From Escherichia phage Sa157lw: a DNA stretch of 64,000 bases. The stretch is from sequence record OK322699.1. One strand, given 5' to 3'. Made by a program: the position numbers and the translations under genes. Below the pieces are notes generated by a model. The model had not been told where the DNA came from. It saw only the letters and a list, made by a program, of their open reading frames with translations, and made no database searches. Positions within the stretch are counted from its first letter, which is position 1, and each line of letters begins with the position of its first letter. Below, one piece after another: positions 4,964-52,329 of this stretch.

Positions 4964-4989
4964 ATTTAAAATTTATTCAATAAACGGGG

Positions 4990-5017
4990 TTTACTTCTTC
5001 AATAAACCCCGTATACT
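4990..5017 (+). promoter_or_regulatory. early sigma70-type promoter (-35 TTTACT, 16-bp spacer containing TTCAATAA, -10 TATACT)
   Basis: sequence read directly; member of repeated promoter family. Confidence 0.55.
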
Positions 5018-5066
5018 TCATTCCATAAGCAGCACAACACTGACTCTGAAATGAAGGAACTACACC

Positions 5067-6382: not shown

Positions 6383-6553
6383 ATGTTACAAATACTGTTG
6401 GTGCTTTGTGTCGCATTTACCATGTACTTCATGGCACGCATCGGTTTTATTACTTTAGATGACATGAAGGGTATCCCACGTGAACCCAAATTCATCTTTC
6501 TGAAGAAGTTTGCCAAAAAGTTCTCAGAAAACTTTATTTATCATCTACCATGA
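6383..6553 (+). CDS. small single-pass membrane protein
   Basis: 56 aa with hydrophobic N-terminal helix (ORF 6359..6553 trimmed to ATG). Confidence 0.3.
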   Translation: MLQILLVLCVAFTMYFMARIGFITLDDMKGIPREPKFIFLKKFAKKFSENFIYHLP

Positions 6554-6557
6554 TTAA

Positions 6558-6583
6558 ATACCCCCAAAATTGGGGGTATTTTT
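6558..6583 (+). terminator. stem-loop ATACCCCC aaaatt GGGGGTAT + TTTT directly abutting the next start codon
   Basis: inverted repeat; also sequesters the G-rich RBS of the 6584 gene. Confidence 0.5.
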
Positions 6584-7312
6584 ATGAACGCACAAATCTA
6601 TGATGTCCTTTCCTCTGGCAATGCATTTAGCAATCCGCTTCCATCCCTCTCCGGTCCTTCTCAGGATTTAATAACCAGTGGCATCACCAATATACCATTG
6701 ATAACTGCCAACGCTACTCCGGAGATGCAGGCGGCTATGGCAGCTGGTGGACTAACACCAGAAAAACTCACAGCAGCCAGCACCATGTATAGCACCGCCA
6801 ACACAGGGATAACAACTCTGAACACATATGGCGACCAAAGTATCAATGACGCGTATTCTCGCATCGGTACTTCCGTGTCATACAAATCAGGTCTGAAGGG
6901 TATATCACGAGAGCCAAACAATTGTGATTTGATCAACAAGGCTTTTGGTGTTGTTCAGGATTTAGGACGCCAATGGCTGAATGCTATGGAAGGCGCTCTA
7001 CAGACCGTAACAAACAAGATATCGGAATTGTATGAGATGATCATGGAAGGTGCCTCAGAAGGAATGGCAAAGCTGCAGGAATTGGCTGCAGAAGTAACGG
7101 GACACATCAATACTGCGATAACCGCAGTCAACGGGGTTATAAGTGATATTACAGATGGTATAGCCGCAGAACTTGCACACATTGAAAGCATGATCAAAGA
7201 GTGCTTGAATTTCTCTTTTGCTAACGTGCTCGGGGAATGGGCTAAAGATCTGTGCGCCGGAGGTGTTATTGACAAAATAGGGACTCCAGCATTAAAAGAA
7301 TCCCTGAAATAA
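6584..7312 (+). CDS. hypothetical protein (Ser/Thr/Ala-rich N-terminus)
   Basis: 242 aa ORF. Confidence 0.45.
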   Translation: MNAQIYDVLSSGNAFSNPLPSLSGPSQDLITSGITNIPLITANATPEMQAAMAAGGLTPEKLTAASTMYSTANTGITTLNTYGDQSINDAYSRIGTSVSYKSGLKGISREPNNCDLINKAFGVVQDLGRQWLNAMEGALQTVTNKISELYEMIMEGASEGMAKLQELAAEVTGHINTAITAVNGVISDITDGIAAELAHIESMIKECLNFSFANVLGEWAKDLCAGGVIDKIGTPALKESLK

Positions 7313-7313
7313 A

Positions 7314-7934
7314 TCAATGACGAGCAGGGAGGACTCCCACTGGTTCGATGCCTTCGATCATCAGGGAGTCCACTCCAACATCGCTCAGGCGAATCCAAAC
7401 CTTACCCCCTGGCCTTATCTCATAGATGTTCATCTCGTTTCCAACAGCAGACCCATTCACAAAAACGCCTTGAGTAGCAATCCGAATAGGCGTTTTGGTG
7501 TTGTTGATTATCTGAAAAGATATCGTGATATCCCTTGTCAATTCCACATTTCTTGCTTTTGTATATCTCCTCAATTTTTCAAAGAAAGATGGATTGAATG
7601 TGGCTATGATGCTGTTGTTTTGTGAGTAGTAAATACTGGCAGACAGATAAGGGATTTTTCCCTCATCACCTTTCCTCAATAGAGGGATCGTGGTTTTCCA
7701 GTACGGTCTCAACGCCTGGTTGTTATCATCAAAACAACCGACGGCTTGTATGGTTTGGAAATTCTGGAAGTCTGCCACAACTTGATCCAGTAACTTTTTA
7801 TTACATTTGTCGACATCAGCAGAAATATTGACTGGTATAGTTCTGATTTCAGGATCCCAAAGATCGGTGACAGAAATCACGGACGTGACAAAGATACGGC
7901 AGCTTGTAAGTACAAGCACCATTATCATCGTCAT
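7314..7934 (-). CDS. putative lipoprotein
   Basis: ORF 7314..8012 trimmed to MTMIMVLVLTSC; lipobox L-T-S-C after hydrophobic stretch. Confidence 0.4.
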   Translation of the reverse strand: MTMIMVLVLTSCRIFVTSVISVTDLWDPEIRTIPVNISADVDKCNKKLLDQVVADFQNFQTIQAVGCFDDNNQALRPYWKTTIPLLRKGDEGKIPYLSASIYYSQNNSIIATFNPSFFEKLRRYTKARNVELTRDITISFQIINNTKTPIRIATQGVFVNGSAVGNEMNIYEIRPGGKVWIRLSDVGVDSLMIEGIEPVGVLPARH

Positions 7935-7997
7935 GATCCATTTTCTGAATCCGCGTATCAGGAACACTAAAAAATTCTCCACAGCAAAGGTGCTAAC

Positions 7998-8495
7998 ATG
8001 ACAGGTGTACAATTCAAAAACGAAAATCCTAATTTCGCGGCTTCCGATAAATGGCGCTTAACCATCGGAGACCTGGTGCTGCTAACCCGTTCGATACACG
8101 ACTTCAGTATCCCTGGCGTGTATTCCGAAGGTATCGAAGGCCCATCCCCTGGCGATGTCCTAAACTCTATACCTTCAGAACGTCTCACGTATGACCCCAT
8201 CGTATTTACGTTCGTTATCGATGAGAGTTGGTACAACTGGGAACAGATTTACAATTGGATCGCTTCGAACGCGGGTTCAGATTTAGCCGTCAGTAGAGAT
8301 ATTACGATTGAACTTTTAGACAACATGAACCGTCCTGTTGGGCTTCAGTTGCTTCTAGAAGAAGGGCGACCAACAGCGCTAGACAACGTGTTGGTTGACG
8401 TGGATGCATCGGTTCCTCAGTTGGTCACAACGGTGACATTCAAATATCTGAAACTGACTCCGACCCGCGTAACCCGCGAAATTGATAAACAATAA
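7998..8495 (+). CDS. hypothetical protein
   Basis: 165 aa ORF. Confidence 0.45.
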   Translation: MTGVQFKNENPNFAASDKWRLTIGDLVLLTRSIHDFSIPGVYSEGIEGPSPGDVLNSIPSERLTYDPIVFTFVIDESWYNWEQIYNWIASNAGSDLAVSRDITIELLDNMNRPVGLQLLLEEGRPTALDNVLVDVDASVPQLVTTVTFKYLKLTPTRVTREIDKQ

Positions 8496-8533
8496 GTTAT
8501 AATACAGAGAGTTGAAACAGCAGGAAATAAATC

Positions 8534-8989
8534 ATGAGTGAAACAAAATTTGAAACAATGAAGACCGAAGATATAATCGCGGAATTAGATCCTCTTATTT
8601 CGGTGAATCCTGAAGACATGAATTTAGACCAAATATCATTGAAAATTGGTCGTTCATGGATGGCTGTCCAGCGCCATTACATTCGTGAAGGGCGTTATCT
8701 AGAATTTTTGACAGGAAAATTCCGTCAAATCGATCTTTATTTACGTCGGTATTATGCAGGGGAATTACCACCCAATATTTATGTCGAACGTCCCCTGAAA
8801 GTTCGCCCCCTGAAATCTGATATAGACGTTTGGGTAAAGGCTGATGACGATTACATTGAGTTATCGAGCATGTTGCAAGAACAAAAAGCCAAAGTAAAAT
8901 TAATCGAAAGTAGTTTAGAACGTTTGAATAAACTCGGCTATGAAGTGAAAAATGCGATTGATTGGCGAAAATACTTGGACGGCATGTGA
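8534..8989 (+). CDS. hypothetical protein
   Basis: 151 aa ORF with AGGAAATAAATCATG start context. Confidence 0.45.
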   Translation: MSETKFETMKTEDIIAELDPLISVNPEDMNLDQISLKIGRSWMAVQRHYIREGRYLEFLTGKFRQIDLYLRRYYAGELPPNIYVERPLKVRPLKSDIDVWVKADDDYIELSSMLQEQKAKVKLIESSLERLNKLGYEVKNAIDWRKYLDGM

Positions 8990-16817: not shown

Positions 16818-16825
16818 AGAATCGC

Positions 16826-16864
16826 TTTACTTCATTCTTCAATAACCCCCTTTCAACGTATATT
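16826..16864 (+). promoter_or_regulatory. promoter-like element of the TTTACTTC-TTCAATAA family (spacing atypical)
   Basis: TTTACTTCattcTTCAATAA .. TATATT; conserved leader AGGAAGACTATACCATG downstream. Confidence 0.35.
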
Positions 16865-16929
16865 GACCTCACTTTAACGACGCGCCCATTTAGGGCGCTC
16901 AATTTGAACTGAAACAGGAAGACTATACC

Positions 16930-23611: not shown

Positions 23612-23619
23612 ACCAAAAG

Positions 23620-23648
23620 AATCCCCAATATTTATTGGGGATTTTTAC
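23620..23648 (+). terminator. stem-loop AATCCCCAATA ttt TATTGGGGATT + TTTT
   Basis: 11-bp inverted repeat read directly. Confidence 0.6.
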
Positions 23649-23657
23649 TTTTAGGGG

Positions 23658-23686
23658 TTTACTTCTTCTAAAGAATATCCTATTAT
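23658..23686 (+). promoter_or_regulatory. early sigma70-type promoter (-35 TTTACT, 17-bp spacer, -10 TATTAT)
   Basis: promoter family member; TTCAATAA lies just downstream of -10. Confidence 0.5.
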
Positions 23687-23731
23687 TCAATAACTGGCTA
23701 ACGTGGGGTTGGCTAGAAAAGGAGATACAAA

Positions 23732-28797: not shown

Positions 28798-29003
28798 TCG
28801 GATTAATTCGTTACCTGTTCATATTCGTAATTTCAACATTCATTTTATTTTTCTTTTTCAAATACTTGAAAGAGACTAAAATCTACCGAAGTAAACGTTG
28901 GCGCAAACGGGTGAGGGTAACTTTCCTGCTGCTGATTTCTTCGGTTACAATAACCGCACTCACATTGGGTGCATATATCTACATTTTTGAAGGGGTACAT
29001 TGA
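28794..29003 (+). CDS. small two-TM membrane protein (holin-like topology)
   Basis: 69 aa; two hydrophobic helices separated by basic loop; ATGA-coupled. Confidence 0.4.
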   Translation: MIGLIRYLFIFVISTFILFFFFKYLKETKIYRSKRWRKRVRVTFLLLISSVTITALTLGAYIYIFEGVH

Positions 29004-29794
29004 TGTTCAAGAAATTGGTGTTCGGTGCAATTATGGTTCTGGCTGCAAGTCTACTTTCTGGTTGTGGTGGCGTTATCGATGAAGGTAATGTCGGCGTTCG
29101 CACCCAATGGGGTGAAGTAGACATGAACCCTGTAACAGCGGGGATCTACACCAGCTTTGTTTCAAGCGTGGATGTTTACACGACCAAAGAAGCCGTTGTG
29201 AGTCTGACTAAAATGACGCCAAAGGCCAAAGACAACCTGACTCTGGAAGACTTGGATGTGGATGTTTATTACACACCCAATGTCGCAAAGGTTCCGTGGT
29301 TCCATACCAAATTTGCTGGCCAGAGCGCTGAACTCGATGATGGCACGATAGCGGTGGGTTTCAATCTAGTTAAAACTGCTGCAGCATCTTCTTCGATGGA
29401 CGCCGTTTCTTCTCTTGATTCTATGACAATTCACACCCAACGTGCTGAATTAGAGAAGATGATTAAAGACCGCACTCAGCAACAATTAGAGACTGCTGCG
29501 CCTGGCATGTTCACAATCACACGCGTGTTGGTCAAAAAGGCGCTGACGGATCCTTCTATTGAGCAGTCTATCCGTGATAATGTTATGGCGGACAAACGAT
29601 TGGATACGGCAAGAAAGAACGTTGAAATTCGCGAGCAAGAAGCCCAAGCGAACCAGAAACTGACCACTTCGCTGACGCCTGAATATCTTCAACATGAATA
29701 TAACATGGTATTACAATCATGTGCCAATAGTGGAAAATGTACTCTGATCGTTGACGGATCCGGCTCAGGTAAAATGCTGAACGTCGGCAAATAA
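29000..29794 (+). CDS. SPFH/band-7 (prohibitin-like) domain lipoprotein
   Basis: signal + lipobox LLSGC; GNVGVRTQWGEV start typical of SPFH. Confidence 0.5.
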   Translation: MMFKKLVFGAIMVLAASLLSGCGGVIDEGNVGVRTQWGEVDMNPVTAGIYTSFVSSVDVYTTKEAVVSLTKMTPKAKDNLTLEDLDVDVYYTPNVAKVPWFHTKFAGQSAELDDGTIAVGFNLVKTAAASSSMDAVSSLDSMTIHTQRAELEKMIKDRTQQQLETAAPGMFTITRVLVKKALTDPSIEQSIRDNVMADKRLDTARKNVEIREQEAQANQKLTTSLTPEYLQHEYNMVLQSCANSGKCTLIVDGSGSGKMLNVGK

Positions 29795-39811: not shown

Positions 39812-39840
39812 AATAATTCAATAAAAGGGGCAAACGCCCC

Positions 39841-39868
39841 TTTACTTCTTCAATAACTACCGTATAAT
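39841..39868 (+). promoter_or_regulatory. early sigma70-type promoter (-35 TTTACT, 16-bp spacer with TTCAATAA, -10 TATAAT)
   Basis: best match to consensus in the family; preceded by hairpin AGGGGC aaac GCCCCT. Confidence 0.6.
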
Positions 39869-39916
39869 TCTAAACATAAGCAGTACGACACCAACTTGAA
39901 AAGCAGGAACTATATC

Positions 39917-52223: not shown

Positions 52224-52249
52224 TATTTCAAAGCCCCTGATCCAGGGGC

Positions 52250-52278
52250 TTTACTTTTGAAACCTTCCCGCCTATACT
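52250..52278 (+). promoter_or_regulatory. early sigma70-type promoter (-35 TTTACT, 17-bp spacer, -10 TATACT) overlapping terminator hairpin AGCCCCTG atc CAGGGGCT
   Basis: promoter family member. Confidence 0.5.
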
Positions 52279-52329
52279 TCCCAATAATTCATTGGCAAAC
52301 GCCACAAATTGAACAGCAGGAACTATATC

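What the first reader, a model, noticed from the sequence alone, without database searches (positions are those of the whole stretch)
7314..7934. Lone minus-strand lipoprotein gene among + strand genes
Lipobox L-T-S-C follows a hydrophobic leader. The gene is convergent with its neighbour with only 1 bp between stops and is divergent from the next + gene. Phage lipoproteins such as T5 Llp or Cor block receptors for superinfection exclusion; orientation and isolation suggest independent regulation.
Basis: partly seen in the sequence, partly recalled or inferred. Interest (0 to 1): 0.4.

Follow-up and report, generated by a model that had tools for sequence, protein, structure and literature searches.

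The report
Conserved phage outer-membrane lipoprotein, function unknown
The lone reverse-strand gene is a real lipoprotein gene found in every Vi01-like (Ackermannviridae) phage; its relatives sit beside the repressor in dormant phages, which hints at a role in blocking other phages, but nothing has tested this.

Summary
The window comes from a Kuttervirus (Vi01-like Salmonella phage). The minus-strand ORF is real and matches Pfam DUF7424 (E=2.5e-60).

**Start codon.** The true start is almost certainly GTG 7967, not ATG 7934. Only this start gives a canonical lipoprotein signal, MFLIRGFRKWIMTMIMVLVLTS|C. The GTG and a TGGAGA ribosome site are invariant in six lineages.

**What is shown.**
- A lipobox is present in 50/50 phage and 90/90 prophage homologues.
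- The gene occurs in every enterobacterial Ackermannviridae record. It always diverges from the tail-completion gene gp3 and is alone on its strand.
- It was not reported in two virion proteomes that detected both flanking products.
- It has its own terminator-like hairpin.
- Vibrio orthologues carry the family's late-promoter motif 36-44 nt upstream. In the window only a conserved GTAAATAC lies 235 nt upstream, inside gp3.
- The AlphaFold model (pLDDT 85) matches no solved fold of informative function.
- Only the signal peptide aligns to T5 Llp or N15 Cor.

**Context of remote homologues.** Most bacterial homologues examined lie in prophages. Five of nine sit in the repressor (lysogeny) operon.

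**Reading.** This is probably an outer-membrane, periplasm-facing lipoprotein that alters the envelope to exclude phages or to protect progeny. It would be an analogue of Llp, not a relative. The function is inferred, not shown (confidence about 0.4).

The parts
7314..7967 (-). DUF7424 lipoprotein gene, 217 codons plus TGA, revised start GTG 7967. The precursor is 217 aa; the predicted mature protein is 195 aa, about 22 kDa, pI 8.5.
   Evidence: ORF. Pfam PF24199 scores 204 bits against a cutoff of 27. Start is supported by the lipobox rule and by homologue N-termini and the invariant GTG.
7902..7967 (-). Signal peptide, residues 1-22. The n-region has R5, R8 and K9; the h-region is WIMTMIMVLVL.
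   Evidence: This is the only hydrophobic segment in the protein. The n/h/lipobox layout is conserved in alignment A1.
7899..7910 (-). Lipobox L20-T21-S22-C23. Cys23 is the predicted acylated first residue of the mature protein. The +2 residue is Arg, which predicts Lol sorting to the outer membrane.
   Evidence: A lipobox is present in 50/50 phage, 68/71 deep-search and 90/90 prophage full-length members, and the +2 residue is R or K in most. The +2 sorting rule is textbook knowledge for E. coli and was not tested here.
7976..7981 (-). Shine-Dalgarno TGGAGA, with GGAG 9 nt before GTG 7967.
   Evidence: Invariant in six Ackermannviridae lineages. Annotated as the RBS in Mooltan and Menlow.
8202..8209 (-). 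GTAAATAC, a candidate late-type promoter core for the lipoprotein gene. It lies 235 nt upstream of the start, embedded antisense in gp3 codons V-F-T.
   Evidence: It is invariant in 6/6 lineages, including two wobble positions, whereas only 12% of amino-acid-invariant codons are codon-invariant. Promoter function is inferred.
7272..7305 (-). Terminator-like hairpin: a 9-bp stem followed by AUUUUG, starting 9 nt after the lipoprotein stop codon, inside the 3' end of the convergent gene.
   Evidence: -23.3 kcal/mol, z = -2.65. A clearer GC stem with a U-run sits at the same place in Klebsiella phage Menlow, where it is annotated as a terminator. The simple terminator scan did not list it.
7734..7805 (-). 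Segment bounded by the codons of Cys55 (7805-7803) and Cys78 (7736-7734). These are the two other family-wide conserved cysteines and may form a periplasmic disulfide.
   Evidence: In alignment A3 (79 sequences), C78 is invariant and C55 nearly invariant. Both are also conserved in A1 and A2. The disulfide is inferred.
6584..7312 (+). Convergent neighbour: a DUF7217 virion protein.
   Evidence: Pfam PF23854, E = 5e-99. Detected in virions of Sajous1 (gp166) and LIMEstone1 (ORF129).
7998..8495 (+). Divergent neighbour: the gp3-type tail completion / sheath stabiliser gene. Its start lies 30 nt from the lipoprotein start.
   Evidence: Annotations and phrog_45. The divergent pairing is kept even in Vibrio Ackermannviridae.
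7629..7637 (+). GTAAATACT on the gp3-sense strand inside the lipoprotein gene (codons S-I-Y read antisense). It is a candidate late-type promoter facing the one at 8209-8202.
   Evidence: Codons AGT ATT TA[CT] are invariant in five lineages while flanking wobble positions vary. Function is inferred.

Best explanation
**Shown from sequence and comparison.** The gene encodes a secreted lipoprotein precursor of Pfam family DUF7424. It is a core, non-virion gene of Ackermannviridae and forms its own small transcription unit on the opposite strand.

**Inferred steps.**
1. The precursor is exported by Sec, diacylglyceryl-modified on Cys23, and cleaved by signal peptidase II.
2. Because the +2 residue is Arg, Lol carries it to the inner leaflet of the outer membrane. 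The compact beta-sandwich domain starts two residues after the lipid anchor, so it would lie flat against the membrane.
3. It is made late in infection.
4. It binds a conserved envelope component from the periplasmic side. This makes the cell, and later its debris and vesicles, non-productive for phage adsorption or DNA entry.

In the virulent Ackermannviridae, this would mainly protect released progeny and block late superinfection. In temperate relatives the same protein is made with the repressor and would protect the lysogen. Functionally this is an analogue of T5 Llp or Cor, built on an unrelated fold. The target is unknown.
For: - **Lipoprotein signal.** It passes the PS51257-type rule only with the conserved GTG start. 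A lipobox is present in 50/50, 68/71 and 90/90 family members. Two further conserved Cys fit a periplasmic protein.
- **Not a virion part.** Sajous1 gp166 and gp168 are listed but gp167 is not. LIMEstone1 ORF127 and ORF129 are listed but ORF128 is not.
- **Family context.** Nine bacterial DUF7424 loci were examined. Five lie in prophage repressor operons: Paracandidimonas lambdoid, Aeromonas P2-like, Desulfosarcina Mu-like, Glaesserella P2-like and Haemophilus HP1-like. One lies in a prophage tail moron block, one at a prophage edge and one in a defence-island-like stretch. No partner gene is conserved among them.
- **No catalytic signature.** The family-wide conserved positions are three Cys, F70, P95, N155 and L194-S195.
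- **Late expression.** The motif CTAAATA[CT]C lies 29-55 nt upstream of 12 Vi01 late genes. The same motif lies 36-44 nt upstream of the lipoprotein start in three Vibrio Ackermannviridae. The window has a wobble-conserved GTAAATAC 235 nt upstream.
- **Own terminator**.
Against: - There is no experimental evidence for any function, and the context evidence is guilt by association.
- Exclusion genes are usually accessory and fast-evolving, and they track the receptor-binding protein. This gene is present wherever gp3 is in the enterobacterial lineages. It diverges at about the rate of its structural neighbour (48-63% against 46-64% identity), while the tailspikes of these phages vary greatly.
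- The known receptors of these phages are surface polysaccharides, which a periplasm-facing lipoprotein cannot mask directly.
- Late expression cannot prevent early superinfection.
- In the window itself no canonical late promoter lies close to the start. The -235 motif begins with G rather than C, T or A, and TAAATA alone occurs at chance frequency on the antisense strand.
- No match to any PADLOC defence model.
Confidence: 0.4

Rival explanations
1. Lysis or egress accessory. A late outer-membrane lipoprotein that helps disrupt or time disruption of the outer membrane, in a spanin-like, disruptin-like or lysis-regulating role.
For: It has an outer-membrane lipoprotein signal and probable late-class promoter signals. 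It is a core gene of a virulent family. No convincing o-spanin-type small lipoprotein ORF was found elsewhere in this 64-kb window.
Against: - The mature protein is a 195-aa folded beta-sandwich. It is not a short proline-rich o-spanin.
- There is no adjacent, overlapping or embedded i-spanin gene; the neighbours are virion proteins.
- There is no C-terminal membrane segment, so it is not a u-spanin.
- Homologues are co-transcribed with prophage repressors, where an outer-membrane-disrupting protein would be harmful.
- A published table of Vi01-like genes lists Rz-like and i-spanin genes separately.
- The Mooltan annotators noted 'no coiled coil, can't be i-spanin'.
Confidence: 0.13
2. An envelope-directed factor not aimed at other phages. 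Examples are a conversion or fitness factor for the host (serum or complement resistance like Bor, or outer-membrane stabilisation), or an inhibitor of a host periplasmic or outer-membrane activity that would harm the infection.
For: The lysogeny-operon position is equally typical of conversion genes. The family occurs in prophages of animal pathogens: Pasteurella, Haemophilus, Glaesserella and Aeromonas. The protein has no enzymatic signature. A strictly conserved core gene fits a function needed in every infection better than an exclusion role does.
Confidence: 0.2
3. A tail or virion assembly component, because the gene is embedded between two virion-protein genes.
For: It lies between the DUF7217 virion protein and gp3, and the pairing with gp3 is kept across the whole family. 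A Pasteurella prophage homologue sits after a baseplate hub gene.
Against: A lipoprotein signal exports the protein from the cytoplasm, where tails are assembled. It is absent from two virion proteomes that detected both neighbours. Most prophage homologues are in lysogeny modules, not tail modules.
Confidence: 0.03
4. A spurious or untranslated ORF lying antisense to late read-through transcription.
For: GenBank records disagree on the start, with three versions. Some records truncate the gene.
Against: It matches a Pfam family at 204 bits. It is present in 347 phage records and has prophage homologues down to about 20% identity with the same lipobox. The protein is conserved over abundant synonymous change. 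The SD and GTG are invariant.
Confidence: 0.01

Closest known systems
T5 Llp (lytic conversion lipoprotein that blocks FhuA)
   Same: Both are lipoproteins encoded by a virulent phage, with the folded part starting right after the lipid-anchored Cys. Both genes lie on the opposite strand next to a tail-gene cluster, divergent from a tail gene; T5 llp is divergent from oad/pb5. Progeny protection plus exclusion is the proposed logic for both.
   Different: Only the signal peptide aligns: 27 columns, hhalign probability 64%. Llp is 61 aa when mature, against 195 aa here. Llp pairs with the receptor-binding protein gene and (from my own knowledge) varies with it. This gene pairs with gp3 and is a slowly evolving core gene. 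By my own knowledge llp is an early gene; the signals here are of the late type.
Cor (phi80/N15/HK022 exclusion lipoprotein)
   Same: A small phage lipoprotein that is prophage-expressed and located among tail genes (N15 gene 24). It is a single-gene system.
   Different: No homology beyond 24 signal-peptide columns. The size and fold are different.
Ltp of Streptococcus thermophilus phage TP-J34 (from my own knowledge)
   Same: A lipoprotein encoded in the lysogeny module between the integrase and the repressor. This resembles the Aeromonas and Haemophilus DUF7424 genes, which run repressor - x - DUF7424 - (x) - integrase. Ltp blocks DNA entry.
   Different: Ltp belongs to a Gram-positive host and is built from helical repeat domains. 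No comparison was run here, and no Pfam family other than DUF7424 was hit.
Pfam DUF7424 (PF24199) / PHROG 3832
   Same: A full-length member: 204 bits, covering residues 26-216. phrog_3832 matches at E = 2.7e-111.
   Different: Neither family carries a function. A full-text search for 'DUF7424' found no paper, and the 2024 Ackermannviridae review contains none of the words 'lipoprotein', 'superinfection', 'promoter' or 'transcript'.
o-spanins (Rz1 type)
   Same: Late phage outer-membrane lipoproteins.
   Different: See the membership test. The size, fold and gene arrangement do not fit.

Membership tests
Bacterial lipoprotein precursors (Lgt/LspA substrates; PROSITE PS51257 rule) | A positively charged n-region, with K or R in the first 7 residues | tested here: met
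   R5 is present with start GTG 7967. The feature is not met with ATG 7934.
Bacterial lipoprotein precursors (Lgt/LspA substrates; PROSITE PS51257 rule) | An uncharged h-region followed by a lipobox [LVI][ASTVI][GAS]C, with Cys at position 15-35 | tested here: met
   IMTMIMVLVL-TS-C has Cys at position 23. Only 2 of 246 window ORFs pass the rule.
Bacterial lipoprotein precursors (Lgt/LspA substrates; PROSITE PS51257 rule) | The lipobox Cys is conserved in homologues | tested here: met
   Present in 50/50 phage, 68/71 deep-search and 90/90 prophage full-length members.
Bacterial lipoprotein precursors (Lgt/LspA substrates; PROSITE PS51257 rule) | Actual lipid modification and signal peptidase II cleavage | not testable with these tools
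   This needs palmitate labelling, globomycin treatment or a C23 mutant.
Pfam DUF7424 (PF24199) | HMM score above the gathering threshold over the full domain | tested here: met
   204.1 bits against 27, covering profile positions 2-195 of 196.
T5 Llp family | Sequence or profile similarity of the mature domain | tested here: not met
   hhalign of A3 against Llp aligns only signal-peptide columns 1-27.
T5 Llp family | The gene is adjacent to and divergent from the receptor-binding protein gene | tested here: not met
   The neighbours are gp3 and DUF7217. The tailspike genes lie more than 20 kb away in Vi01.
T5 Llp family | Binds and inactivates the phage's own receptor | not testable with these tools
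   This needs adsorption and binding assays.
Cor family | Sequence or profile similarity of the mature domain | tested here: not met
   hhalign of A3 against N15 Cor aligns only 24 signal-peptide columns, at probability 41%.
o-spanin (Rz1-like) | An outer-membrane lipoprotein signal | tested here: met
   The +2 residue is Arg.
o-spanin (Rz1-like) | A short, proline-rich, largely unstructured mature protein | tested here: not met
   The mature protein is a 195-aa beta-sandwich with helices, pLDDT 84.6.
o-spanin (Rz1-like) | The gene is embedded in, overlapping or adjacent to an i-spanin gene | tested here: not met
   It is flanked by DUF7217 and gp3 on the other strand.
u-spanin (T1 gp11-like) | An N-terminal lipobox plus a C-terminal transmembrane segment | tested here: not met
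   No hydrophobic window exceeds 1.13 (Kyte-Doolittle, 19 aa) outside the signal peptide.
T4-type late genes (gp55/gp33-dependent) | A TATAAATA-like element shortly upstream of the gene (in this family CTAAATA[CT]C, 29-55 nt before the start) | tested here: inconclusive
   The motif is met in Vibrio orthologues, 36-44 nt upstream. In the window only GTAAATAC is found, 235 nt upstream, though it is wobble-conserved. No transcript data were found.
Known anti-phage defence systems (PADLOC) | A match to a defence-protein model | tested here: not met
   Only a stray hit at E = 0.022 for the window protein, and none for three prophage members.

The most novel reading that the evidence does not exclude
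DUF7424 could be a previously unrecognised, widespread class of phage-borne outer-membrane lipoprotein with a new fold. It would block phage entry by acting on a conserved envelope component from the periplasmic side. It would be used by temperate P2-, HP1-, Mu- and lambda-like phages from the repressor operon, and fixed as a late core gene in a whole family of virulent phages. In the enterobacterial lineages its dose may be set by two face-to-face late promoters, each embedded in the other gene's coding sequence (lipoprotein and gp3). These would give about 580 nt of mutually antisense RNA.
Probability: 0.2. Interest if true: 0.65.

Novelty: new variant of a known kind. Interest (0 to 1): 0.4.

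Why it matters
Ackermannviridae are widely proposed for biocontrol of Salmonella, E. coli O157, Klebsiella and Dickeya. About half of their genes have no function, and this one is in every genome. If the protein blocks phage entry, it would matter in three ways.

- It would affect the design of phage cocktails.
- It would explain cross-resistance of lysogens that carry P2-, HP1- or Mu-like prophages with the same family.
- It would point to a conserved envelope step that many phages depend on.

The work also gives a practical correction. The start codon is misplaced in many GenBank records, which hides the signal peptide. The link between a virulent-phage core gene and prophage repressor operons is a concrete hypothesis that simple experiments can test.

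Tried and rejected
- **Sequence searches.** The PDB sequence search found nothing below E = 1. NCBIfam matched only signal-peptide noise to LptM. PADLOC gave nothing.
- **Conserved partner gene.** The two 208-aa ORFs preceding DUF7424 in Aeromonas and Desulfosarcina looked like a cassette, but they are unrelated (E = 82).
- **Sigma-70 promoter scan.** No convincing promoter lies upstream of the gene. The only minus-strand hit lies downstream of the start.
- **T4 consensus.** TATAAATA is not enriched in the window. The family's own motif had to be derived from the Vi01 late genes.
- **Literature.** No hit for DUF7424. No Ackermannviridae transcriptome was found. The 2024 review is silent on this gene. 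The Viunalikevirus proposal paper is not held.
- **Spanin genes.** I tried to locate the phage's spanin genes to close the lysis rival. They are not annotated in the Mooltan or Guerrero stretches examined, and no o-spanin-like ORF is in the window.

Full report
**Source and observation.** Region 6500-8600 is 100% identical to Salmonella phage vB_SenM-AKM_ssTn and 99.8% identical to Vi01. The window is therefore a Kuttervirus of the family Ackermannviridae. The minus-strand ORF 7314-8012 exists. Its stop codon is one base from the stop of the convergent + gene 6584-7312, and it diverges from the + gene 7998-8495. In four annotated relatives every other gene across about 11 kb is on the + strand.

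**Start codon.**
- Only GTG 7967 yields a leader that passes a PROSITE PS51257-type rule: MFLIRGFRKWIMTMIMVLVLTS|C, with Cys23 and GGAG 9 nt upstream.
- Homologues begin at the equivalent position.
- GTG and TGGAGA are invariant in six genus-level lineages.
- Tested on every start of all 246 six-frame ORFs of at least 60 aa, the rule fires on only this ORF and one other.

**A real, conserved gene.** The protein matches Pfam DUF7424 at 204 bits and PHROG 3832.
- A word-indexed search gave 52 clusters, the longest contigs about 150-160 kb, at 49-91% identity.
- tblastn finds the gene in 347 phage records. The neighbouring gp3 is found in 355, with identical counts for Salmonella, Klebsiella, Escherichia, Dickeya, Serratia, Shigella, Erwinia, Enterobacter and Aeromonas phages. 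It is therefore a core gene of the family.
- It diverges about as fast as its structural neighbour DUF7217 (48% and 63% identity against 46% and 64%) and faster than gp3, UvsY or the exonuclease.
- Across six lineages only 6 of 50 amino-acid-invariant degenerate codons keep the same codon, which shows protein-level selection.

**Arrangement.** The layout DUF7217 / lipoprotein on the other strand / gp3 is kept in Kuttervirus, Taipeivirus, Agtrevirus, Limestonevirus, Miltonvirus and a 49%-identical metagenomic lineage. In Vibrio-infecting members the far neighbour differs, but the divergent pairing with gp3 remains.

**Not a virion protein.** CsCl-purified Sajous1 virions gave spectra for gp166 (DUF7217) and gp168 (gp3), while gp167 is never mentioned. 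LIMEstone1 virions gave ORF127 (gp3) and ORF129 (25 kDa), but not ORF128. Absence from a proteome is weak evidence on its own. Here it occurs twice, and an exported lipoprotein could not join cytoplasmic tail assembly anyway.

**Wider family.** A full HMMER scan of 1.84 billion representatives with the phage profile found 80 proteins at E <= 1e-3, mostly 190-230 aa.
- Nearly all have an N-terminal lipobox followed directly by [KRD]-x-x-[VIL]-x-[ST]-x-[VI]-x-x-S-x-L, plus two further conserved Cys.
- The named members are from Pasteurellaceae, Aeromonas, Alcaligenaceae, Halomonas, Salinivibrio and Desulfosarcina.
- All tested members hit DUF7424.

**Genomic context of bacterial members.** Nine bacterial loci were examined.

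| Context | Loci |
|---|---|
| Prophage repressor operon, same strand as a CI/HTH/S24 repressor, gaps of 70 nt or less, divergent from the early operon | Paracandidimonas (lambdoid), Aeromonas salmonicida (P2-like: repressor - orf - DUF7424 - integrase), Desulfosarcina (Mu-like), Glaesserella (P2-like), Haemophilus haemolyticus (HP1-like: CI - orf - DUF7424 - orf - ParE - integrase) |
| Moron block inside prophage tail genes | Pasteurella multocida |
| Prophage edge | Castellaniella |
| Defence-island-like stretch | one 6.3-Mb genome |
| Uninformative | Alcaligenes |

No partner gene is conserved among these loci. This is the position typical of prophage-expressed exclusion or conversion genes.

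**Comparison with known exclusion lipoproteins.** T5 llp was fetched. It is divergent from the receptor-binding gene oad, an arrangement reminiscent of this locus. However, profile comparison aligns only the signal peptide, both for Llp and for N15 Cor. Any resemblance is functional analogy, not membership.

**Expression.**
- These phages encode gp55, gp33 and gp45 homologues and use T4-like late promoters (PMC3121705 and PMC3296691).
- On the late-gene strand of the Vi01 region examined (45 kb fetched; the late genes span about 38 kb), 12 of 14 TAAATA occurrences lie 29-55 nt before a late gene. Most read CTAAATA[CT]C. CTAAATAC is enriched in the window, with 5 occurrences against 1.1 expected, all on the + strand.
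- In Vibrio phages K452, D493 and GR28A this motif or its CTAAGTAAT variant lies 36-44 nt upstream of the corrected lipoprotein start. The orthologue there looks like a late gene.
- In the enterobacterial lineages the gp3-lipoprotein spacer is only about 30 nt and holds no such motif.
- The longest invariant run in the 373-nt upstream alignment is GTAAATAC (8209-8202, minus strand), 235 nt upstream. It lies antisense in gp3 codons GTA-TTT-AC, whose wobble bases are fixed in 6/6 lineages although only 12% of comparable codons are.
- A mirror-image (G/A)TAAATACT lies on the gp3-sense strand inside the lipoprotein gene (7629-7637), with the wobble bases of AGT-ATT fixed in five lineages.
- These two motifs would face each other and give about 580 nt of overlapping transcripts. 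This is an inference, because TAAATA alone occurs at chance frequency on the antisense strand.
- A hairpin followed by AUUUUG starts 9 nt after the lipoprotein stop (z = -2.65). The equivalent in Menlow is a clear terminator. The opposite strand lacks a U-run there, so plus-strand late transcription from the DUF7217 promoter (TTAAATACCCCC at 6554-6565) could read through to gp3.

**Interpretation.**
- Firm: this is an exported lipoprotein of a phage and prophage family, a core and non-virion gene, and its own transcription unit.
- Probable: it is localised to the outer membrane (+2 Arg rule) and expressed late.
- Inferred (about 0.4): it modifies the envelope from the periplasmic side so that phage adsorption or entry fails. 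That would protect lysogens in temperate relatives, and progeny or late-infected cells in Ackermannviridae.
- Main counter-arguments: strict conservation and an unremarkable evolutionary rate despite highly variable tailspikes, polysaccharide receptors that a periplasm-facing protein cannot mask, and late timing.
- Rivals: a lysis accessory (0.13), weakened by the fold, the lack of an i-spanin partner and the repressor-operon homologues. A non-exclusion envelope or host-fitness factor (0.2). A virion or assembly role (0.03). A spurious ORF (0.01).

**Novelty.** The ORF and the label 'putative lipoprotein' are already in databases. No function is reported in the literature I could search. New here are the corrected start, the family-wide lipobox, core-gene status, the link to prophage repressor operons, the apparent new fold and the late-promoter evidence. 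If the exclusion role holds, this is a new structural family doing a known kind of job.

Noticed in passing
window 29000-29794 (+): A second predicted lipoprotein, and the only other ORF in the window that passes the lipobox rule: MFKKLVFGAIMVLAASLLSG|C. It matches phrog_200 'lipoprotein'. It is probably the SPFH/band-7 lipoprotein that gave 3 spectra in Sajous1 virion preparations.
   Followed up: partly
window 1061, 6555, 9732, 42774, 43370, 46673, 57792 (+); L022 (Vi01 96000-141000): The late-promoter core of this phage family appears to be CTAAATA[CT]C, 29-55 nt before the start codon, rather than T4's TATAAATA. TATAAATA occurs only 3 times in the window, which is chance level. CTAAATAC occurs 5 times against 1.1 expected, all on the + strand.
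   Followed up: partly
window 7629-7637 (+) and 8202-8209 (-): Two wobble-conserved TAAATAC motifs face each other, each embedded antisense in the other gene (lipoprotein and gp3). They would produce about 580 nt of mutually antisense late RNA covering both translation start regions. This could tune the dose of both products.
   Followed up: partly
window 4964-5066, 16818-16929, 23612-23731, 39812-39895, 52224-52308 (+): A repeated intergenic module: a GC-rich terminator hairpin followed directly by TTTACTTCTTCAATAA...TATA(C/A)T. This is a sigma-70-like -35/-10 pair with a conserved spacer, and these are probably the early promoters.
   Followed up: no
GenBank records of relatives (L001-L004, L018; P0133, P0134, P0050): The gene is annotated inconsistently. 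There are three start codons among Kutterviruses, and truncated versions in Serratia phiMAM1 and 3M (102 aa), EspM4VN (174 aa) and Vibrio K452 (start inside the signal peptide). All of these hide the lipoprotein signal.
   Followed up: yes
window 6584-7312 (+): The convergent neighbour DUF7217 is a confirmed virion protein of unknown role. It gives weak PHROG hits to tape-measure proteins and to a baseplate hub/tail lysozyme family, and a weak Pfam hit to the baculovirus PEP C-terminal domain. In phrog_289 it aligns only to the C-terminal half of a 500-position profile labelled 'GTP-binding domain'.
   Followed up: no
phage records OR844942.1 and others: Records named 'Enterococcus phage Efm 3-10' (111 kb) and one 'Pseudomonas' phage carry sequence about 97% identical to this Salmonella Kuttervirus region. 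These are probably mislabelled or contaminated entries.
   Followed up: no
L007/L008 7353-7979 and L011 7345-7971: In an Aeromonas P2-like prophage and a Desulfosarcina Mu-like prophage, the gene just before DUF7424 is exactly 208 aa in both. The two proteins are unrelated (BLASTP E = 82), and the Aeromonas one has a BRCT domain.
   Followed up: yes
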